Source: a virus. From it: DNA of 19,123 nucleotides. The translations under genes and the position numbers were made by a program. The stretch is from UHGV virus genome UHGV-0246749; one strand, 5' to 3'. Shown here piece by piece: positions 5,473 to 12,113 of this stretch. Within the stretch, counting starts at the first letter, position 1. Every line of letters begins with the position of its first letter. The notes beneath the pieces were generated by a model. The model searched no databases and was not told where the DNA came from. It saw nothing but the letters and a program-made list of their open reading frames with translations.

Positions 5473-5520
5473 ACGCTGCTGCGAAGACCACCCCCAGAGT
5501 TACGATTGCATCAGGCCAGC

Positions 5521-6033
5521 TCATTGATTCACCTCCTGCCTGTCGTCCGGCATTCGCTCACTACAGCTTATCCAACCATCCGGAGTTACCGGAGAGCTGG
5601 TTGACGCTTCCGGGATTTTCCGAAAATTATTGGTTGACGAATCTTTATTTTCCCGAAAGTTTCCGGACTGAAGCATGGCTTCGCGGCAATCGTTCCAGCC
5701 TGTAGCGTATGCAGCCGCTTTGCTGCTGCCTTCAACTGGCGCATCCTGCCAATACATTTCTTCCGGCACTATCGGCGCTGGAGGGGCGGCAAATAGATAT
5801 CCGCCAAAGTCAGGAAGCTCTCTAATGGCCTGTACGAATTTTTGTTTGCCTACGTCAACTCCTAATGGGTAATGAGCTATAATCTTTGCCACCGGCTCTG
5901 CTGCCAGTGATGCCAGCGCAATCCGTGCCAGCTCTTCCGCTTCTTCTGCTGGAAGCACAACGTTGCTACCCGGTCCGTATGTTTCGCGCCACTGCTTGAT
6001 TGTCAGCAGTCGCTCTTTGGTTATAGTGGTCAT
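5521..6033 (-). CDS. Phage protein with DUF551-like C-terminal motif, possibly truncated
   Basis: 170 aa ending '...DGWISCSERMPDDRQEVNQ'; the 'W-I-x-C-x-E-R-x-P' pattern fits the start of DUF551 domains, but the ORF stops about 12 residues later. Confidence 0.55.
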   Translation of the reverse strand: MTTITKERLLTIKQWRETYGPGSNVVLPAEEAEELARIALASLAAEPVAKIIAHYPLGVDVGKQKFVQAIRELPDFGGYLFAAPPAPIVPEEMYWQDAPVEGSSKAAAYATGWNDCREAMLQSGNFRENKDSSTNNFRKIPEASTSSPVTPDGWISCSERMPDDRQEVNQ

Positions 6034-6043
6034 GTGTTACTCC

Positions 6044-6307
6044 TTAACCCGCAGTGCTTTCAACTGATGAGGGGAACAAAATCTTTTCATCAAACCCTGC
6101 ATTCATATCATGGACAGCAACACACCAATCCATCGACGAACGATTATCAAGAGCCTCCATGATTTCATCCATGCGGCGTAGGTCATACAGGTAAATGGTT
6201 TTATCGCCAATGGTGTAAAAACCAATTTTTTTTGGTGATGGACAGCGATCAAGAACGTCCTGTAATTCATTCAACCATGCCCGTTCTTTTTTTGTTAAAG
6301 TGGCCAT
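6044..6307 (-). CDS. Hypothetical phage early protein
   Basis: 87-aa ORF with ATG start, tightly packed between neighbours on the same strand. Confidence 0.5.
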   Translation of the reverse strand: MATLTKKERAWLNELQDVLDRCPSPKKIGFYTIGDKTIYLYDLRRMDEIMEALDNRSSMDWCVAVHDMNAGFDEKILFPSSVESTAG

Positions 6308-6308
6308 A

Positions 6309-6845
6309 TCACTCTCCTTTGATACGAATGTCAGCGACGCGTAATGCGTGTTCTAGGTCAATCAGGTAAAGCCAACTGCCATTTTCTTTAGGTATCATGA
6401 CTTGTCGCTCATCTGCATTTATCGGGTGTCCATATCGAAGGTCGTAGCGAGTCGGTAATTGAACTTCCCGCGCTTCCAGTTCAGCAATACGCTTGCACCC
6501 ATCAGAGATAACTCCCTCGTAATACTCGCGCTGCTCGTTGAGTTTTGATTTTGCTGCTTCAAGCTCAACGCGCAGCTTCCCAACCGTAAGCGCAATATCC
6601 TCGTTCTCCTGGTCGCGGCGTTTGATGTATTGCTGGTTTCTTTCCCGTTCATCCAGTAGTGCCAGCACGGTTTCTGGTCCGGTCAGAAATTTGAAGGCAT
6701 TGAGCGCATCAATATCCACACCGTAATCTTTAAGTTCCTGTTCACTTAACAAATCATCATCAGCTGGCAACATTAACAGGCGTTCCATTGCTGGAATTGC
6801 ACGTTCCGCCACCTCACGCAGTGACTGGTAATTAATTTCGCTCAC
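6309..6845 (-). CDS. Ea22-like protein (paralog 1)
   Basis: 178 aa; N-terminus 'MSEINYQSLREVAERA' matches the conserved N-terminus of the neighbouring paralog; GTG start overlaps the upstream stop as GTGA. Confidence 0.6.
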   Translation of the reverse strand: MSEINYQSLREVAERAIPAMERLLMLPADDDLLSEQELKDYGVDIDALNAFKFLTGPETVLALLDERERNQQYIKRRDQENEDIALTVGKLRVELEAAKSKLNEQREYYEGVISDGCKRIAELEAREVQLPTRYDLRYGHPINADERQVMIPKENGSWLYLIDLEHALRVADIRIKGE

Positions 6846-7528
6846 TGGTTGCCTCCTTTGCGAAGCTGGGCAGCAAAGTCAACTAACCACTCAGTCATTT
6901 CAACCTTCCCTACCAGGTCTGAACCAGGGTGCATACAGCAATCACTCTGCGCCGCTTTGAAATCCTTATACTCATATTCTTGGGCCACCAGATTTTTTGC
7001 AGCTTCTATAGCAGCATCCACCCCCTGCGCCCGGACTTCAGCCAGGAAAGCATCAGTGGTTGGCGTTTCAGGTATCTGTCTCCTCATCCGTTCTATTGCA
7101 TGATTGAACCCGAAGTCTTCCGCGAGAGATACGTCATCCATATTGTCATTGTCATCCTCAATATCCCGTGATTCTGGAATTGCAGACTTTATTCCCGCAT
7201 TCTCCGCTGTCAGCGCCGCGCACTTGGCCTCAAGAGCGGCAACCACTTCCTGATGGTCTTTGTACTTAACGTATGAGCCGGAGATGTCATCACCTTCGGT
7301 GTTTAGCCATGCGTCATTGCAATTCACTGCGTAGGTTCTGATGCTCATGTTGATGCTCTCCCGCCCCTGACAGACGCCAGGCCAGTCAATAAAGTATCCG
7401 CAATGCCTACCCTCAGACGTGCGCGCAGGATAAATGCCGTTATGACCCGGCAAAATATATGCTACCCATTCATCTTGCGTTGCCTGTTCCGCCGCCTCGC
7501 GCAGTGCCTGATAGTCAATCTTGCTCAC
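6842..7528 (-). CDS. Ea22-like protein (paralog 2)
   Basis: 228 aa; N-terminus 'MSKIDYQALREAAEQA'; GTG start; acidic stretch and coiled-coil-like segment. Confidence 0.6.
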   Translation of the reverse strand: MSKIDYQALREAAEQATQDEWVAYILPGHNGIYPARTSEGRHCGYFIDWPGVCQGRESINMSIRTYAVNCNDAWLNTEGDDISGSYVKYKDHQEVVAALEAKCAALTAENAGIKSAIPESRDIEDDNDNMDDVSLAEDFGFNHAIERMRRQIPETPTTDAFLAEVRAQGVDAAIEAAKNLVAQEYEYKDFKAAQSDCCMHPGSDLVGKVEMTEWLVDFAAQLRKGGNQ

Positions 7529-7853
7529 TGGCAGCCTCCTTTGCCGGGATTTCTAACTTTTGAGTGGTTGTATCAAATTCAAACAACTTAACCACGTCAT
7601 CAAACAGGACATAATCACCATCAGGATCTTCAGTCATATCTGCGCCACAATCCTGACCGCACGAGTCGCAACCATCCATATCAAGCTCGTATCGCTTCAG
7701 GTTTGCGATATTTGATAAATTCAGCGCCAGTACAGCCAGGTCATAAACCTCTTCGGCAGTGACATCGCTGTTCAGTCCCATTTCATGGCGATATATGATT
7801 TTTTCTACTCGTTGTTTTGTGATCGTCATTTTTCTCTTCACTCCGATATACAA
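7515..7853 (-). CDS. Hypothetical phage protein, start uncertain (TTG at 7853; ATG at 7829 after GGAG; ATG at 7781 one nt after the upstream stop)
   Basis: 112-aa track ORF; acidic Cys-containing C-terminal half; the choice of start changes the overlap with the upstream gene. Confidence 0.45.
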   Translation of the reverse strand: MYIGVKRKMTITKQRVEKIIYRHEMGLNSDVTAEEVYDLAVLALNLSNIANLKRYELDMDGCDSCGQDCGADMTEDPDGDYVLFDDVVKLFEFDTTTQKLEIPAKEAASEQD

Positions 7854-8100
7854 GGATTACTACACCCCCTCTGCTGATTGCGCGAGCTGGATCCCCTGGT
7901 TCCATGCCGTCAATTCCGAAGGCTTCGGAAAACGCATTCATTGCCTTCTGGCGTTCATCCTGCTTACGGCGTTTATTCCATTTTTTCAGGAACAACAGCG
8001 ACAGCCACCGTCCGCTGCAGAACACGATGTAAAAATAACCAAGGAGCGCCAGGCCGACATTCAGGGCCGTTTCTATGGTTAGTTGTGAGTCAGTTGCCAT
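7783..8100 (-). CDS. Small putative membrane protein (one hydrophobic helix followed by a basic stretch)
   Basis: N-terminal 'LNVGLALLGYFYIVFCSGRWLSLLFL' is hydrophobic, followed by 'KKWNKRRKQDERQK'; ATG start at 8100. Confidence 0.45.
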   Translation of the reverse strand: MATDSQLTIETALNVGLALLGYFYIVFCSGRWLSLLFLKKWNKRRKQDERQKAMNAFSEAFGIDGMEPGDPARAISRGGVVILVYRSEEKNDDHKTTSRKNHISP

Positions 8101-8338
8101 TTCTTACCTGTTTAAGTAACTGGTTGAACATAACACTTAGGGGATTGCTGTATCCAAACGGCAGATTGTTTACGCAGTACAGAATCGTTTTGTTTTTTTC
8201 TCCAGTTCGTACTATTAACCCATTCCACAATAACCGTGATAATTCATTACTGATAGAAGTTGCGCTTCTTCCAAGTGCGAGGGATATATCTTCTCTACTG
8301 CAATCTGGATTTTCCTGGATATACTCGATAACGGTCAT
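8090..8338 (-). CDS. Small protein with possible winged-helix fold
   Basis: Track ORF 8090-8380; I prefer the ATG at 8338 (MTVIEYIQ...), preceded by AAGGGA and clear of the upstream gene. Confidence 0.45.
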   Translation of the reverse strand: MTVIEYIQENPDCSREDISLALGRSATSISNELSRLLWNGLIVRTGEKNKTILYCVNNLPFGYSNPLSVMFNQLLKQVRNGN

Positions 8339-8348
8339 GTGGTCCCTT

Positions 8349-8930
8349 TTACTTAATATCTGTTTCGGATTGCATGCCATGAGTATTCATTTCGTTAATA
8401 ATTTCATCCAGAAGGATTTCAAGCCCTTCTCGACCCATATCTGAAAGAATGAAACCTTTATCAGGGGAAGTAGTGAGCATTTTCTGATAAAGAAACAGCG
8501 CTCTTCCCATTCCTTCAGCTTCGCCGTATTTTTGAATTAAATTCCATTCAATATACTGTTGTAAGGCAAATCGAATGGGGCCGGGATATATCGTCATAAA
8601 CCCATACATCCCGTTATATACCACGGCGTGTTCAATTGTTCCGTGTTCATTCAGGATATCAATTGTGCCGTTCTTGTCTTCTTCTTCGTTGATGAATGTC
8701 GTCACATACAACCATCGCCACTGAGCAACCTTCATCTCAACCGGAAGTTTACCCAGTAATCCTGCTTCGTCGGCTTGCGCCAGACACTGAAGGATACGTA
8801 AACCTCGCACATTAGGAGTATCGAATTCTCCGGCATCCAGACGACGTATGGCGTCGTGATAATCAATCGTCATACTGCCAGTTCGTATACCATTGGCTGT
8901 TGCTTCAGCCTGGAATTCATCGTATTGCAT
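8349..8930 (-). CDS. Hypothetical protein, 193 aa, no recognised domain
   Basis: ATG start; translationally coupled to the upstream 60-aa gene (its stop TAA lies within the GAGGAA ribosome-binding region). Confidence 0.6.
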   Translation of the reverse strand: MQYDEFQAEATANGIRTGSMTIDYHDAIRRLDAGEFDTPNVRGLRILQCLAQADEAGLLGKLPVEMKVAQWRWLYVTTFINEEEDKNGTIDILNEHGTIEHAVVYNGMYGFMTIYPGPIRFALQQYIEWNLIQKYGEAEGMGRALFLYQKMLTTSPDKGFILSDMGREGLEILLDEIINEMNTHGMQSETDIK

Positions 8931-8935
8931 GATAT

Positions 8936-9118
8936 TTATTCCTCATCTTCATCTGCTGGTGCAATAACGTCATATCCTGCCCTTTCTGCAATAAACAGGA
9001 ATGTTGAAAGAGTTCCTACAAGTTCATCGTCATGAACATGGCGAATGAATATTACTTTCCCGTTTTTGATGGTCAGCAATATTCTGGTTTGTTCGTGTTC
9101 TGCTGTTTTCTGATGCAT
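8936..9118 (-). CDS. Hypothetical small protein, 60 aa, acidic C-terminal tail
   Basis: ATG preceded by GGGAG; ends 'APADEDEE'; 5-nt gap to the next gene. Confidence 0.5.
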   Translation of the reverse strand: MHQKTAEHEQTRILLTIKNGKVIFIRHVHDDELVGTLSTFLFIAERAGYDVIAPADEDEE

Positions 9119-9120
9119 TA

Positions 9121-9234
9121 TTATCTCCCGTATGCTTTACGCAGAAATAAGCAGGCAATATGCATGTAATTTTCACCGTATTGTGCAATAAGGCAGGCGG
9201 TCTTGTGTGATGCCATATTCTTTATAAAAGTCAC
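9121..9234 (-). CDS. Possible small ORF (37 aa), not in the ORF track
   Basis: My own translation: (GTG)TFIKNMASHKTACLIAQYGENYMHIACLFLRKAYGR; AGGAGG lies 7 nt before the GTG; its stop is 2 nt before the 60-aa gene start. Could be non-coding leader instead. Confidence 0.25.
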   Translation of the reverse strand: MTFIKNMASHKTACLIAQYGENYMHIACLFLRKAYGR

Positions 9235-9312
9235 AATAAAGCCTCCTGTGGTTTAAGGTTGTAACAATCCCCGGCGATAAAACCGCAATAAACGTTCAGG
9301 GCATATTTGTTG

Positions 9313-9678
9313 TTATTGCGCTAATTCTTTTTCGGCAGCAGCTTTTGTATACTCACATGCAAAACTCAGAATTTCGCTGCCGAGTGTTTTCGTTTCGTGA
9401 TTACTGGACATATGTAATACCTGTGTTGCATGCAATAAATGATAAACATTTACCGCAAATGAATCAGGCTCCAGGCAAATGCCTTCGTAATTATCTTGCT
9501 GTGAGGTTGTTTCTGTCATTGCTCCTGAAGTGCATACGAGCCTGTTTTTGACAATTCTCTTTTCTCTAATCACTATATCGGCAACATCTATTGCCTTTAC
9601 AACCTCCGGGAGAAGTTCCGGGTTTGTATAATCAAAGTCATCAACATGGAGAACAGTTATGTTTTCGAACTTTTTCAT
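9313..9678 (-). CDS. Hypothetical protein, 121 aa, AT-rich gene
   Basis: ATG preceded by GAGGA at 5-nt spacing; flanked by AT-rich intergenic DNA on both sides; no recognised domain. Confidence 0.55.
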   Translation of the reverse strand: MKKFENITVLHVDDFDYTNPELLPEVVKAIDVADIVIREKRIVKNRLVCTSGAMTETTSQQDNYEGICLEPDSFAVNVYHLLHATQVLHMSSNHETKTLGSEILSFACEYTKAAAEKELAQ

Positions 9679-9806
9679 GGTTTCCTCAGCTGACTTATAT
9701 GTTCTGCTATATAGCGAGTCTCAGAAGTGTTTTCATATTGAGACTGTTTCCGCAATGATTGATAAAAATGTTCGCATGTACCTTGAGGGGCGAAGCGGCG
9801 ATTATG

Positions 9807-10310
9807 TCACCATTGGTATTGGTTCTTCCGTAGAAGAGCTTCGCGAGATAAGGGGCAAACTTGTTGAGATGCGTCATGGTGTTGCTGCTCCTCACTTTTT
9901 GGTTGCTCCGGAGGAGTAACCTCACCAGTTAACAGCCACATCGGATCGCAGCCAAGAATATTTGCCAGTGGGATAAGCATACTGATAGTTGGTTCATACT
10001 CTCCGCTCTCCCACTGGATGATAATTTCTTCATCGAGATCGAGCAGCCTGGCGAGTTCGGCGGTTGTTAAGCCGCAGGCTTCGCGTTGGGTGCAAAGACG
10101 GTTGTTGATTGCAGAATTTTTGTTCTGTAAAAGCATTGCTGACGATAGCTTTCTGGATATGCTATTTGTCATATCCCATGCCAGTCCTGCGCATGACTCT
10201 ATATCGCTAGAGAGCGTAGCATCAGGTGTTGCTTTTGCTATTAGTGTAATGAGGCTGCCGAGGTTTTTCAGTTCTTCGAGACAGTCAAGAGTTGTAGCTT
10301 TATTGATCAT
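9807..10310 (-). CDS. HTH (XRE-type) DNA-binding protein with a 58-aa N-terminal extension; first gene downstream of the putative pL
   Basis: 'CGLTTAELARLLDLDEEIIIQWESGEYEPTISMLIPLANILGCDPMWLLTG' is a classic XRE-family helix-turn-helix; ATG at 10310 preceded by GAGG; an internal ATG at 10136 would give an N-terminal HTH instead. Confidence 0.6.
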   Translation of the reverse strand: MINKATTLDCLEELKNLGSLITLIAKATPDATLSSDIESCAGLAWDMTNSISRKLSSAMLLQNKNSAINNRLCTQREACGLTTAELARLLDLDEEIIIQWESGEYEPTISMLIPLANILGCDPMWLLTGEVTPPEQPKSEEQQHHDASQQVCPLSREALLRKNQYQW

Positions 10311-10413
10311 GAGATGATACCTCAGTTACGAACTTTGTTTTATGGTAACTAAGGTATCAAGGTGTGGCAAGTGATTTTTGATACTTTGGTTTCTTTTTGT
10401 GTTTTGTGTCTGG
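10311..10413 (-). promoter_or_regulatory. Putative OL/pL region: two copies of the operator 12-mer plus a leftward promoter
   Basis: 'ttgatactttgg' at 10378-10389 and its near-reverse-complement 'ctaaggtatcaa' at 10349-10360; on the minus strand -35 TTGCCA (10365-10370), 17-nt spacer, -10 TACCAT (10342-10347). Confidence 0.45.
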
Positions 10414-11070
10414 TCAGAAAATATCCCACCTGGCATCAACCACAACACCTACTATTTCGCAATCATTGTCCATTTCTATGATTGGATATTGTGGATTAAG
10501 GGGCTTTAGAAACGCCTTTCCCATGTCAGAAATATATTTTTTGAATGTTGCTTCATTGGTAGATTTTTTTCTGGCGATGACGTAACACCCTGAAAAAACT
10601 TCTTTATCTGGGTTGACAAGGATCGACATTCCTTCAGGAAATGTTATTCCTACGGGCGAAGTCATTGAGTCTCCGTGCACTTCCAGCCAGAACCCCCTCT
10701 CACCAGCGTATTTTACAGAATGCCTCCAATTATCCTGATCATACATGTTGTAGTCATCACCAGAAGTTGCGAATAATCCTGCCTGAACCCAGTTAATTAC
10801 AGGGTAAGAGTGTGCTGTGTCTCTCTGTGGGCAGCTCTTAACATTATTTTCCCAATGCTTATCTTTTTCATCTCCGTTCTGAAGCCACTGCGGTGAACAC
10901 CGCAGTGCAGCTGCAACTTTAAAAAGGGTGTCACCGTTGAAACTTTTTGTAAGGCCTTGCTCGGCTTTACTTATTGCAACTCTGGTGACCCCAGCTTTTT
11001 TAGCCAACGCATCTTGTGTTAACCCAGCTTTTTGCCGTGCGTTGATGAGACGTTCACCTAAAGACTTCAT
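10414..11070 (-). CDS. cI: CI-type prophage repressor (N-terminal HTH, C-terminal LexA/S24 peptidase-like domain)
   Basis: Track ORF extends to 11145, but the ATG at 11070 (MKSLGERL...) follows AGGAG. N-terminal HTH 'LTQDALAKKAGVTRVAISKAEQG'; C-terminal 'HGDSMTSP' and 'ARKK' fit the S24 Ser/Lys dyad; 'VQAGLF' contains a possible Ala-Gly autocleavage site. Confidence 0.85.
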   Translation of the reverse strand: MKSLGERLINARQKAGLTQDALAKKAGVTRVAISKAEQGLTKSFNGDTLFKVAAALRCSPQWLQNGDEKDKHWENNVKSCPQRDTAHSYPVINWVQAGLFATSGDDYNMYDQDNWRHSVKYAGERGFWLEVHGDSMTSPVGITFPEGMSILVNPDKEVFSGCYVIARKKSTNEATFKKYISDMGKAFLKPLNPQYPIIEMDNDCEIVGVVVDARWDIF

Positions 11071-11181
11071 TTTTCTTCTCCTCTCATGGCTGTTGATACT
11101 AAAGTAACAGAATTTCTTGATACTTTGGGTTCCTGTGGTTAACATCGTTGGATAACAAAGTATCTGGCGTGAGACTAAAGA
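11071..11181. promoter_or_regulatory. Putative OR/pR/pRM region: three copies of the operator 12-mer and a rightward promoter
   Basis: 'ttgatactaaag' at 11093-11104, 'ttgatactttgg' at 11117-11128, reverse copy 'caaagtatct' at 11156-11165; rightward -35 TTGATA (11117-11122), 17-nt spacer, -10 TAACAT (11140-11145). Confidence 0.5.
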
Positions 11182-11409
11182 ATGACCCTTTATGAAATAT
11201 TAAAAATTCAATTTAAAACCAATGCCGCTATTGGTCGCAGGTTCCCAAAGAAAGGAAGGCCTCGTGGCAGTCAAGGTGTTGGAAAGTGGAAAACGCGAGG
11301 TGTTCCGGAGGATGTTGCCATTCTTTGTCATCTGGATCCGAGCATTCCATATACACACCCAAGTCTAGCGAATACAGAAGATGACAAGCCCACAGGAGAC
11401 CAACAATGA
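11182..11409 (+). CDS. Possible small basic protein in the Cro position; could be non-coding leader
   Basis: 75-aa ORF rich in K/R/G with no HTH I can recognise; weak ribosome-binding site; stop overlaps the next ATG. Confidence 0.3.
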   Translation: MTLYEILKIQFKTNAAIGRRFPKKGRPRGSQGVGKWKTRGVPEDVAILCHLDPSIPYTHPSLANTEDDKPTGDQQ

Positions 11410-12113
11410 ACACCGCAATTTTTAACGGCAAAGCATCCATGACCAGCGTTGAGATCGCAGAGTTGGTGGGAAGCCGACCAGATAGTGTTAAGAGAACTAT
11501 TGAAACACTGGCTAAAAAGGGAATCATCCAATTTCCACAGACTGTGGAAATTGAGAATAAACAATCACTTGGGCCTCGCCGATTTTCTAGCGCGTATGTA
11601 TTCGAAGGTGAACGAGGTAAGCGCGACAGCATCATTGTCGTCGCACAGCTCTGTCCTGAATTCACAGCTTGCCTGGTAGATCGCTGGCGCGAACTGGAAG
11701 AACAGATCCGTAAGCCAATGAGCGAAATCGAAATGGTTGCCGCGATGGCTCTTGAAGCCGTTCGCCAACAGAAACGGATCACTCAGGTGGAAGAAAAAGT
11801 CAGCCACGTTGCTGAAACAGTCGAGCAAATTAAAAAGGGCACTATTCGTGAGGGCTATGCCGGATATCGCCAACTGAAAGCAAAAACCGGTTTGTCAGAT
11901 GATAAATGCCGCAATCTGGTGAACGCCTATCAAATTCCTACAGACACACATGAGTTCATGACGCCGGACGGATTGTTGTCACGTCGCGCAATTGTTGCTG
12001 TGGAACCGTTTATGGCTGCTTTTTATCGGGTTATGGAGGAAGCAGAACCGCGAGGGACTCGCTGGTATCACCCGAAAATGGGGTTATTTCAGGTTATTGG
12101 TTGGCAGCGATGA
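11406..12113 (+). CDS. Rha-like / antirepressor-like DNA-binding regulator
   Basis: 235 aa; ATG preceded by AGGAG; N-terminal 'MTSVEIAELVGSRPDSVKRTIETLAKKG' parallels the N-terminal region of the Rha protein at 12526. Confidence 0.55.
   Translation: MNTAIFNGKASMTSVEIAELVGSRPDSVKRTIETLAKKGIIQFPQTVEIENKQSLGPRRFSSAYVFEGERGKRDSIIVVAQLCPEFTACLVDRWRELEEQIRKPMSEIEMVAAMALEAVRQQKRITQVEEKVSHVAETVEQIKKGTIREGYAGYRQLKAKTGLSDDKCRNLVNAYQIPTDTHEFMTPDGLLSRRAIVAVEPFMAAFYRVMEEAEPRGTRWYHPKMGLFQVIGWQR

What the first reader, a model, noticed from the sequence alone, without database searches (positions are those of the whole stretch)
8349..9234. Tightly coupled cluster of small genes (37-aa candidate, 60 aa, 193 aa) with no recognisable domains
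The 60-aa gene (acidic tail) and the 193-aa gene are separated by 5 nt, with the upstream stop inside the downstream ribosome-binding site. An unannotated 37-aa ORF with an AGGAGG site ends 2 nt before the 60-aa gene. A small acidic protein coupled to a larger unknown protein is the layout seen in toxin-antitoxin-like and anti-defence pairs.
Basis: inference. Interest (0 to 1): 0.55.

Follow-up and report, generated by a model that had tools for sequence, protein, structure and literature searches.

The report
Three unlinked prophage early accessory genes
The three tightly packed small genes are real, conserved genes of unknown function in the repressor-controlled early operon of a phiP27-like E. 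coli prophage, but they are independent cassettes from a larger variable gene array, not a toxin-antitoxin or inhibitor-effector pair.

Summary
On the minus strand lie a 37-aa ORF (9121-9234, GTG start, AGGAGG 7 nt upstream), a 60-aa gene (8936-9118) and a 193-aa gene (8349-8930), separated by 2 nt and 5 nt. The 37-aa ORF is a real gene: it stays open in six diverged phages, has dN/dS of about 0.07 in frame, and has homologues in 12 Enterobacteriaceae species.

The window is a phiP27/Stx-phage-like lambdoid prophage beside yecE. The 60-aa and 193-aa genes are phiP27 L07 and L06 (phrog_340 and phrog_1515, both of unknown function). All three sit behind an operator-flanked pL-type promoter.

Related phages carry a longer array in fixed order with variable content: s37, f10, f3, L07, a ParE-like gene, f7, L06, Ant. 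The window keeps a reduced version. L06 occurs without L07 in 20 of 81 loci, and L07 occurs in operons that lack L06, so the pair reading is not supported.

L06 gives a confident model (pLDDT 87.6) with no structural or sequence relative of known function. No family matches any lambda or P22 protein.

The most likely role is early-expressed, non-enzymatic binding proteins, which is inferred rather than shown. This is an ordinary kind of feature; the modest interest lies in the 37-aa micro-protein family and the orphan L06 fold.

The parts
9121..9234 (-). s37: a 37-aa basic (pI 9.5) micro-protein gene with a GTG start (ATG in most relatives). Family consensus is M-T-F-I-K-D-K-A-A-Y-K-T-A-x-L-...-G-...-I-A-x-L-F-L-R-K-A-Y-G-R. 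It is the first gene of the conserved accessory array.
   Evidence: ORF. Conservation and ATG starts. dN/dS 0.07 in frame versus 0.73 and 6.6 out of frame. Homologues in 57-68 of about 80 viral loci and in 12 Enterobacteriaceae species. No Pfam, PHROG, NCBIfam, PADLOC or PDB match. pI.
9242..9247 (-). AGGAGG Shine-Dalgarno sequence, 7 nt upstream of the s37 start codon.
   Evidence: Read directly from the sequence. Conserved as AGGAGG, TGGAGG or AGGAGA in five other phages.
8936..9118 (-). L07: a 60-aa acidic protein (pI 5.0), the phiP27 L07 homologue and a phrog_340 member. Predicted as a beta-hairpin (residues 12-28) plus a helix (37-46). Its DE-rich tail is specific to this lineage.
8349..8930 (-). 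L06: a 193-aa strongly acidic protein (pI 4.6, net charge -14), the phiP27 L06 homologue and a phrog_1515 member. It has a confident alpha/beta model with no known structural relative.
8090..8339 (-). Context: the next gene downstream, an 83-aa MarR-like winged-helix protein starting 9 nt after the L06 stop. RefSeq does not annotate it in the identical genome.
   Evidence: ORF. phrog_1687 at 1.5e-24. Pfam MarR_2 at 9e-5, below the curated cutoff. Annotated as MarR in the Stx1 phages and absent from the RefSeq table.
9313..9678 (-). Context: the upstream gene L08 (121 aa, phrog_5451), separated from s37 by a 78-nt spacer.
   Evidence: The spacer has no significant RNA fold (z = -0.6) and no Rfam match.
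10315..10400 (-). Context: a candidate OL/pL region between the cI-like repressor gene and the first early-left gene. Operator-like repeats (GATAC-N4-GTTAC type) overlap a promoter-like site (TTGCCA-17-TACCAT, 10370..10342).
   Evidence: Repeats shared with the cI/cro intergenic region at 11114-11164. Promoter-like site. Sequence.

Best explanation
The three ORFs are three separate, functional protein-coding genes in the repressor-controlled early-left (pL-type) operon of a phiP27/Stx-phage-like lambdoid prophage integrated beside yecE.

They are what remains of a longer accessory-gene array that keeps a fixed gene order while individual genes come and go between phages: s37, f10, f3, L07, f6 (ParE-like), f7, L06, Ant-like.

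Their 2-nt and 5-nt spacing is the normal polycistronic packing of this operon. It allows coupled translation of neighbouring genes but says nothing about a functional partnership.

By inference, each protein acts alone, soon after induction or infection, as a small non-enzymatic binder of a host or phage protein. L06 is a strongly acidic alpha/beta protein with an orphan fold and no catalytic motif. L07 is a small acidic beta-hairpin-plus-helix module that also appears as the C-terminal part of Ant-type antirepressor families. s37 is a basic protein of about 35 aa, probably a helical hairpin, that heads the array.

Shown: the genes are real and under selection, their operon position, their modular independence, and the absence of any known family or fold. 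Inferred: early expression and a binding rather than enzymatic mode of action. Unknown: the targets.
For: Prophage identity and gene order.

Operator-like repeats flank the repressor gene and overlap a promoter-like site upstream of the operon. No terminator-like site and no excess of promoter-like sites lie inside 8349-9234.

All three genes are under purifying selection.

The fixed-order, variable-content array appears in 81 L06-anchored loci and 12 s37-anchored species genomes. L06 and L07 occur independently of each other in both directions.

None of the three matches Pfam, NCBIfam, PADLOC or PDB, and none matches lambda or P22.

L06 homologues occur only in phages or phage-like circles. 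Charge properties are conserved across each family. L07 shows similarity to the C-terminal region of Ant-type PHROGs.
Against: There are no expression data, so early expression rests on position and on operator and promoter consensus matches only. One promoter-like site inside L08 (9519..9490, 10 of 12 matches) could give independent or lysogenic expression.

'Binding protein' is an argument from the absence of catalytic motifs and of homology, not positive evidence.

Among Stx phages the homologous DNA block covers s37, L07 and L06 together (window 8372 to about 9498). Within this lineage the three travel as one unit, which is compatible with some functional linkage.

The L07 model is only moderately confident (pLDDT 69.8).
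Confidence: 0.6

Rival explanations
1. L07 and L06 form a two-component system of the toxin-antitoxin or effector-inhibitor type. L06 is harmful to the cell or to phages, and the small acidic L07, translated just before it, neutralises it.
For: Small-then-large gene order with a 5-nt gap here and a 4-nt ATGA overlap in phiP27-type relatives. The two travel together in the Stx-phage mosaic block. Several frameshifted L06 copies exist in E. coli genomes. L07 and L06 co-occur in 61 of 81 loci.
Against: L06 occurs without L07 in 20 of 81 loci. L07 occurs in Pantoea and Salmonella operons that have no L06. Where both are present they are separated by other genes in 44 of 56 loci. No toxin, antitoxin or defence model matches either protein. 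L07 has no DNA-binding domain. Frameshifted copies of L07 also exist, as expected for decaying prophages.
Confidence: 0.1
2. One or more of the three proteins is an anti-defence factor. For example, the strongly acidic L06 could act as a DNA or protein mimic that blocks a host restriction, RecBCD-like or abortive-infection system early in infection. In that reading it takes the place that ral, gam or abc occupy in lambda and P22.
For: The genes lie in the promoter-proximal part of the early-left operon, and this phage has no recognisable ral, gam or abc homologue there. The acidic character of L06 is conserved: family median pI 5.0, and -14 net charge here. Patchy presence and absence, as seen here, is typical of counter-defence genes.
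Against: There is no homology or fold similarity to any known anti-defence protein or DNA mimic. Acidity is a weak and common property. No experimental data exist. This rival is a more specific version of the best explanation rather than a contradiction of it.
Confidence: 0.2
3. The genes are lysogenic-conversion or superinfection-exclusion morons. They would be expressed from the prophage to protect the host against other phages.
For: A promoter-like site (10 of 12 matches) lies about 250 nt upstream of s37, inside L08. GC content is lower (0.39-0.45) than in the flanking ea-type genes. Prophage early regions are known hot spots for defence genes (general knowledge).
Against: No PADLOC defence model matches any of them or their array companions. 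They are co-oriented and tightly packed with the early-left operon downstream of operator-like sites. No upstream terminator or insulated promoter-terminator cassette is visible. The immunity region has the same low GC content.
Confidence: 0.08
4. The 37-aa ORF is not a protein-coding gene. It would be a chance ORF or a leader whose translation, rather than its product, matters for expression of the genes downstream.
For: It is very short, it starts with GTG in this window, RefSeq does not call it, and it matches no family in Pfam or PHROGs.
Against: dN/dS is 0.07 in frame and at least 0.7 in the other frames. The amino-acid motif LFLRKAYG(R/K) is conserved down to about 32-50% overall identity in many genera. 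Most relatives have an ATG start with a conserved Shine-Dalgarno sequence. Independent gene callers annotate it in other records.
Confidence: 0.03

Closest known systems
Enterobacteria phage phiP27 genes L07 and L06 with the unnamed small ORF upstream, and the same module in Stx1a/Stx2a-converting phages and Escherichia phage PhiR49_2
   Same: They are direct homologues in the same order and position: 79% DNA identity to phiP27, 92-93% to the Stx phages and 99.2% to PhiR49_2. All are annotated as hypothetical proteins.
   Different: In the window the last 7 codons of L06 differ because the homology breakpoint lies at 8372. L07 here carries a DE-rich tail in place of the ...PPAKEQTL ending. The downstream neighbour is a MarR-like gene rather than the Band_7/'lipoprotein' gene L05.
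PHROG families phrog_1515 (L06) and phrog_340 (L07), both 'unknown function'
   Same: Membership is clear: 4.6e-90 over the full length, and 3.9e-22.
   Different: These families carry no functional information. The 37-aa protein has no PHROG family at all.
Promoter-proximal accessory genes of the lambda and P22 early-left operons (ral, cIII, kil, gam; P22 c3, kil, arf, abc1/abc2)
   Same: They occupy the same genomic niche between the immunity region and xis-int, on the repressor-gene strand. They are small, tightly packed, non-essential-looking genes that in lambda and P22 act by binding host proteins (established knowledge of these phages).
   Different: No sequence similarity to any of them in any reading frame. 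Function here is inferred from position only.
Three-gene ParE toxin-antitoxin layouts such as paaR-paaA-parE of E. coli O157:H7 prophages (recalled from the literature, not tested against those sequences)
   Same: In the longer relatives of this array, L07 sits between f3 and a 72-aa protein that matches Pfam ParE_like (PF24732, 2e-18). This gives a regulator-sized gene, a small gene and a ParE-like gene in a row.
   Different: The window has neither f3 nor the ParE-like gene. L07 matches no PDB chain, PaaA2 complexes included. The strict co-occurrence is between f3 and f6, not L07 and f6: L07 alone in 18 loci, f6 alone in 13.
C-terminal region of Ant-type 'anti-repressor' phage proteins (phrog_4792, phrog_2379)
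   Same: L07 residues 12-53 align to positions 199-240 of phrog_4792 (1.2e-6) and to positions 127-175 of phrog_2379 (9e-4). The N-terminal part of phrog_4792 resembles the ORF6N domain of the Ant-like gene that follows L06 in related arrays.
   Different: L07 is the small module alone, with no BRO-N, ORF6N or KilA-type DNA-binding domain. The similarity is weak, and the function of that C-terminal region is itself not established.

Membership tests
Type II toxin-antitoxin pair (L07 as antitoxin, L06 as toxin) | The two genes depend on each other and therefore co-occur as neighbours. | tested here: not met
   L06 occurs without L07 in 20 of 81 loci, and the two are separated by other genes in 44 of 56. 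L07 occurs in operons that lack L06.
Type II toxin-antitoxin pair (L07 as antitoxin, L06 as toxin) | The toxin belongs to a recognised toxin family or fold. | tested here: not met
Type II toxin-antitoxin pair (L07 as antitoxin, L06 as toxin) | The antitoxin has a DNA-binding domain or belongs to a recognised antitoxin family. | tested here: not met
   No family hit apart from phrog_340, which is of unknown function. No PDB sequence or fold match.
Type II toxin-antitoxin pair (L07 as antitoxin, L06 as toxin) | Growth arrest caused by the toxin is relieved by the antitoxin. | not testable with these tools
   This needs expression experiments.
ParE-type TA module with L07 as the antitoxin | A ParE-like toxin gene lies immediately downstream and co-occurs strictly with L07. 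| tested here: not met
   The window contains no ParE-like gene. In related arrays L07 occurs without f6 in 18 loci and f6 without L07 in 13; f3-f6 is the strict pair.
Characterised lambda and P22 early proteins (N, Ral, CIII, Kil, Gam, Ea10, Abc1/2, Arf and others) | Detectable sequence homology. | tested here: not met
   Family HMMs searched with filters off against all six frames of lambda and P22. The best E-values for s37, L07 and L06 are 2.7, 0.84 and 1.6.
Known anti-phage defence systems (PADLOC-DB v2) | A match to a defence-protein model. | tested here: not met
   No hits for the three proteins or for their array companions.
Known anti-defence proteins or DNA mimics (Ocr, ArdA, Gam type) | Homology or fold similarity to a characterised member. 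| tested here: not met
   No PHROG with that annotation. No PDB or BFVD fold match. L06 is acidic, but that alone does not define the class. No dedicated anti-defence library was available.
Lambdoid early-left (pL-type) operon accessory genes | The genes lie on the repressor-gene strand between the immunity region and xis-int, downstream of an operator-controlled promoter, with no intervening terminator. | tested here: met
   Gene order. Operator-like repeats shared with the cI/cro region overlap a promoter-like site. No terminator-like site lies between 10340 and 8349 on the minus strand. These are consensus matches, not transcript data.
Lambdoid early-left (pL-type) operon accessory genes | Expressed early after induction or infection and repressed in the lysogen. 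| not testable with these tools
   This needs RNA-seq or ribosome profiling of induced and uninduced lysogens.
PHROG phrog_1515 (L06) and phrog_340 (L07) | A significant full-length match to the family profile. | tested here: met
   4.6e-90 (residues 1-192 on profile positions 12-202 of 203) and 3.9e-22.

The most novel reading that the evidence does not exclude
L06 would be the founding member of a new fold class of acidic early phage proteins that disables a host defence or DNA-metabolism protein. s37 would be a previously undescribed micro-protein family, about 35 aa and found across the Enterobacteriaceae, with its own host target. The fixed-order, variable-content array that s37 heads would then be a counter-defence or host-takeover 'toolbox' locus of phiP27-like temperate phages, comparable to the accessory regions of lytic phages. 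None of this is excluded by the evidence, and none of it is shown.
Probability: 0.2. Interest if true: 0.6.

Novelty: new member of a known kind. Interest (0 to 1): 0.3.

Why it matters
As it stands this is routine. Temperate-phage early operons are full of tightly packed small genes of unknown function, and these particular genes have sat in databases as hypothetical proteins since the phiP27 genome.

Three things are still worth keeping. First, the 37-aa ORF is a well-supported conserved micro-protein that NCBI's pipeline misses and that has no Pfam or PHROG family. Second, L06 gives a confident model with no structural relative, in a module carried by about 6% of complete E. coli genomes, including ST131-type and Shiga-toxin phage lineages. 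Third, the fixed-order array with a ParE-like member offers a defined set of candidates for screens of phage host-takeover or counter-defence genes.

The main practical result is negative: tight spacing plus an acidic tail should not be read as a toxin-antitoxin or inhibitor pair here.

Tried and rejected
- **Toxin-antitoxin or obligate-pair reading:** rejected on co-occurrence in both directions and on the lack of any toxin or antitoxin model.
- **L07 as antitoxin of the ParE-like f6:** rejected, because f3-f6 is the strict pair and L07 and f6 each occur alone.
- **Homology to lambda or P22 early proteins:** none.
- **Fold searches:**
  - L06 against BFVD gave nothing.
  - afdb50 was unavailable.
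- **Profile searches against PDB sequences:** nothing for any of the three families.
- **Internal duplication in L06** (beta3-alpha-alpha units): hhalign probability below 1%.
- **RNA element in the conserved spacer upstream of s37:** fold z-score -0.6, and no Rfam hit at E up to 1.
- **Internal promoters or terminators within 8349-9234:** no more than expected from shuffled sequence.
- **A TPR-like reading of s37:** suggested by the spacing of its small and hydrophobic residues, but unsupported by any Pfam hit, so dropped.
- **The annotation '2-polyprenylphenol hydroxylase related flavodoxin oxidoreductase'** on L06 homologues in some Klebsiella phage records: no Pfam support in 46 family members, so treated as annotation noise.
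- **A 'faint' DUF5375 mark** on one L06 homologue: not reproduced in direct scans.
- **Literature searches** by phage name, gene name and accession: nothing relevant.
- **Co-folding L07 with L06:** not attempted. The structure tool reports only per-chain confidence and accepts only unmodified sequences.
Full report
**What is there.** All three ORFs of the finding lie on the minus strand.
- The 37-aa ORF runs 9121..9234. It starts with GTG, and an AGGAGG at 9242-9247 lies 7 nt upstream.
- Two nucleotides after its TAA stop comes the ATG of the 60-aa gene (8936..9118).
- That gene ends ...DEDEE-TAA. Five nucleotides later comes the ATG of the 193-aa gene (8349..8930).

The packing carries on beyond the finding. 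An 83-aa MarR-like winged-helix gene starts 9 nt after the 193-aa stop (ATG at 8339). It overlaps the next gene (DUF4752), which in turn overlaps the one after it.

**Where it is.** The window is a lambdoid prophage.
- It is 100% identical over the region to the chromosome of E. coli NMBU_W05E18, where it sits next to yecE (DUF72) with int and xis at the end.
- It is 99.2% identical to Escherichia phage PhiR49_2, 92-93% to a set of Stx1a/Stx2a-converting phages, and 79% to phiP27.
- About 325 of 5426 complete E. coli genomes carry related DNA.
- In phiP27 nomenclature the 193-aa gene is L06, the 60-aa gene is L07 and the 121-aa gene upstream is L08.

The gene order on the minus strand is: cI-like LexA-family repressor (10414..11145), a 167-aa HTH protein, L08, the 37-aa ORF (s37 below), L07, L06, MarR-like, DUF4752, Ea22-like genes, DUF551, xis, int.

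Operator-like repeats of the type GATAC-N4-GTTAC occur in two places. One set is in the cI/cro intergenic region (11114-11164). The other is in the roughly 100 nt between cI and the HTH gene (10315-10400), where the repeats overlap a promoter-like site. No terminator-like site lies on the minus strand between there and the cluster, and promoter-like sites are no more frequent than in shuffled sequence. The cluster therefore sits in what looks like the repressor-controlled early-left operon. This rests on consensus matches and position, not on transcript data.

**The 37-aa ORF is a real gene.**
- It is open in all six phages compared. Four start it with ATG, and the Shine-Dalgarno sequence is kept.
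- Window versus phiP27 gives 30 differences distributed 10/3/17 over codon positions. Nei-Gojobori dN/dS is 0.07 in frame, against 0.73 and 6.6 in the other frames.
- phmmer and HMM searches find homologues on the same strand upstream of L06 in 57-68 of about 80 diverged IMG/VR contigs.
- A pattern scan of one genome per bacterial species finds it in 12 Enterobacteriaceae species: Citrobacter, Trabulsiella, Pseudocitrobacter, Atlantibacter, Kosakonia, Raoultella and Superficieibacter. In every case it is the first gene of the same array.
- The family is basic (median pI 9.6) and ends in a conserved LFLRKAYG(R/K).
- It has no Pfam, PHROG, NCBIfam, PADLOC or PDB match.
- RefSeq does not annotate it in the identical genome, but several GenBank records do.

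**L06.**
- It matches phrog_1515 (unknown function) over its full length at 4.6e-90, and nothing in Pfam, NCBIfam or PADLOC.
- A word-indexed search finds only Escherichia relatives. An exhaustive profile search of 1.8 billion representatives finds 101, nearly all stand-alone proteins of 190-220 aa. None of the 46 scanned has a Pfam domain.
- The AlphaFold model is confident (pLDDT 87.6, pTM 0.83). It contains three small beta units and six helices.
- The family is consistently acidic: median pI 5.0, and pI 4.6 with net charge -14 here.
- Conserved residues are D37, G34, R72, W73, F79, Y105, R120, E128, Y148 and G166. They do not form a recognisable catalytic motif.
- Almost all members end in G[LM]PxxPVxH at the exact C-terminus. 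The window copy instead ends GMQSETDIK, because the homology breakpoint with phiP27, the Stx2 phages and ASU11 falls at 8372, seven codons before the stop.
- dN/dS is 0.20-0.25.
- Homologues occur only in phage records and in phage-sized non-mobilizable 'plasmids'.

**L07.**
- It matches phrog_340 (unknown function) at 3.9e-22. It also matches, weakly, the C-terminal region of two 'anti-repressor' PHROGs: phrog_4792 at 1.2e-6 and phrog_2379 at 9e-4.
- A profile search finds 532 clusters across the Enterobacterales, all hypothetical and all without Pfam domains.
It varies in length among near-identical copies (DEDEE, DEDEDEE, DEDEDEDEDEE) and is absent from the rest of the family.
- dN/dS is 0.17-0.41.

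**The three genes are not a unit.** I clustered the same-strand ORFs of 80 L06-containing viral contigs. This shows a longer array with a strictly kept order and variable content:
- s37
- f10 (phrog_8959)
- f3 (phrog_1737)
- L07
- f6 (phrog_1525, which matches Pfam ParE_like PF24732 at 2e-18)
- f7 (phrog_1886)
- L06
- an Ant-like ORF6N or BRO-N protein
- then f13, f8 or f15, and finally xis and int

The window, phiP27 and the Stx phages carry the reduced form s37-L07-L06, seen in 17 of 81 loci.

Among 81 loci with full upstream sequence:
- L06 lacks L07 in 20.
- Where both are present they are adjacent in only 12 of the 56 plus-strand loci.
- The only near-obligate pair is f3 with f6: both present in 56, neither in 23, discordant in 2.

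Starting instead from L07 homologues, Pantoea and Salmonella prophages carry s37-f10-f3-L07-f7 or s37-f3-L07-Ant arrays with no L06 at all. An Atlantibacter prophage has the full set. Independence in both directions argues against a toxin-antitoxin or inhibitor-effector relationship between L07 and L06. The f6 data argue equally against L07 being the antitoxin of the ParE-like protein.

Within the Stx-phage lineage the trio plus the 3' part of L08 does move as one mosaic block (window 8372 to about 9498). That is the one piece of evidence for local linkage.

**Comparison with known systems.** I ran it directly: HMMs of every array family against all six reading frames of lambda and P22, with filters off, give only noise. 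No defence model (PADLOC) matches the three proteins or their companions. The literature searches found nothing on these genes.

The closest known things are therefore:
- the uncharacterised homologues themselves (phiP27 L06 and L07, and the PHROGs);
- by position only, the small host-directed early-left genes of lambda and P22 (ral, cIII, kil, gam, abc, arf);
- for L07, the C-terminal module of Ant-type proteins.

**Most likely mechanism.** The evidence shows three independent genes under purifying selection, packed in an operator-controlled early operon, each a cassette of a variable array. From that I infer three things:
- The genes are transcribed together from the early-left promoter on induction or infection.
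- They are translated in a coupled fashion only because of operon packing.
- Each protein acts on its own as a stoichiometric binder of a host or phage protein. L06 is an acidic orphan-fold protein, L07 a small binding module related to Ant C-termini, and s37 a basic micro-protein.

An anti-defence role for one or more of them is a plausible special case (about 0.2). Nothing here supports it beyond genomic position, patchy distribution and charge.

**Verdict.** This is an ordinary kind of feature, uncharacterised accessory genes of a temperate-phage early operon. The modest extra value lies in a well-supported, mostly unannotated micro-protein family and in a confident orphan fold.

Noticed in passing
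window 8090-8380 (-): A MarR-like winged-helix gene (phrog_1687 at 1.5e-24; Pfam MarR_2 at 9e-5, below the cutoff) directly follows L06. The likely start is the ATG at 8339, 9 nt after the L06 stop, although the ORF extends to 8380. RefSeq leaves it unannotated in the identical genome, while the Stx1 phage records call it a MarR family regulator.
   Followed up: partly
window 8936-8953 (-), 3' end of L07: The acidic tail of L07 varies in length among near-identical E. coli copies: ADEDEE (60 aa), ADEDEDEE (62 aa) and ADEDEDEDEDEE (66 aa). This looks like slippage of a GAT/GAA repeat. The rest of the L07 family has no such tail.
   Followed up: partly
window 8349-8372 (-), 3' end of L06: Nearly all L06 family members end in a conserved G[LM]PxxPVxH at the exact C-terminus. 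The window copy ends GMQSETDIK instead. The homology breakpoint with phiP27, the Stx2 phages and ASU11 lies exactly at 8372, so a mosaic junction has replaced the conserved C-terminal motif. The role of the terminal His motif is unexplained.
   Followed up: partly
window 9313-9678 (-), L08: The ORF is 121 aa and matches phrog_5451 over its full length (5e-83), but RefSeq annotates only the last 68 aa (9313-9519). The Stx phages carry just that C-terminal module of about 66 aa as a separate gene (phrog_4587). A promoter-like site (ATGACA-18-GATAAT, 10 of 12 matches) lies at 9519..9490 on the minus strand.
   Followed up: no
window 10315-10400 and 11114-11164: Operator-like repeats (GATACCTTAGTTAC / GTAACTGAGGTATC / GATACTTTGGTTTC) flank the cI-like repressor gene on both sides. 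On the left side they overlap a promoter-like site upstream of the 167-aa HTH gene. These are candidate OL/pL and OR sites.
   Followed up: partly
window 9266-9278 (minus-strand sequence ATCGCCGGGGATT): A 13-nt block in the spacer upstream of the 37-aa gene is invariant in six phages whose flanking spacer sequence varies. It forms part of a small hairpin (CGGY...GCCG), but the region has no significant fold (z = -0.6) and no Rfam match. Its function is unknown.
   Followed up: partly
related loci, e.g. L031 2758-3565, L092 3645-4452: In the longer arrays, a 119-aa protein (f3, phrog_1737) and a 72-aa protein matching Pfam ParE_like (PF24732, 2e-18; pI about 11.5) co-occur almost perfectly: both in 56 loci, neither in 23, discordant in 2. 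L07 is often inserted between them. This may be a toxin-antitoxin-like pair embedded in a phage early operon. The window has neither gene.
   Followed up: partly
protein P0072 (336 aa); loci L059, L066, L069-L072: One family member fuses L06 to a C-terminal domain resembling f15 (phrog_37628). In a subgroup of elements, L06 is followed by f15 and a primase/helicase-like protein of about 920 aa rather than by an Ant-like gene.
   Followed up: no
Klebsiella phage records (e.g. MN166823, MK422455): L06 homologues in these records are annotated as '2-polyprenylphenol hydroxylase related flavodoxin oxidoreductase'. No Pfam domain supports this in any of 46 family members, so it is probably propagated annotation error.
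   Followed up: partly
window 5500-11500: GC content is 0.38-0.45 across 8100-9700 and across the immunity region, against 0.48-0.51 in the Ea22/DUF551 genes nearer int.
   Followed up: no
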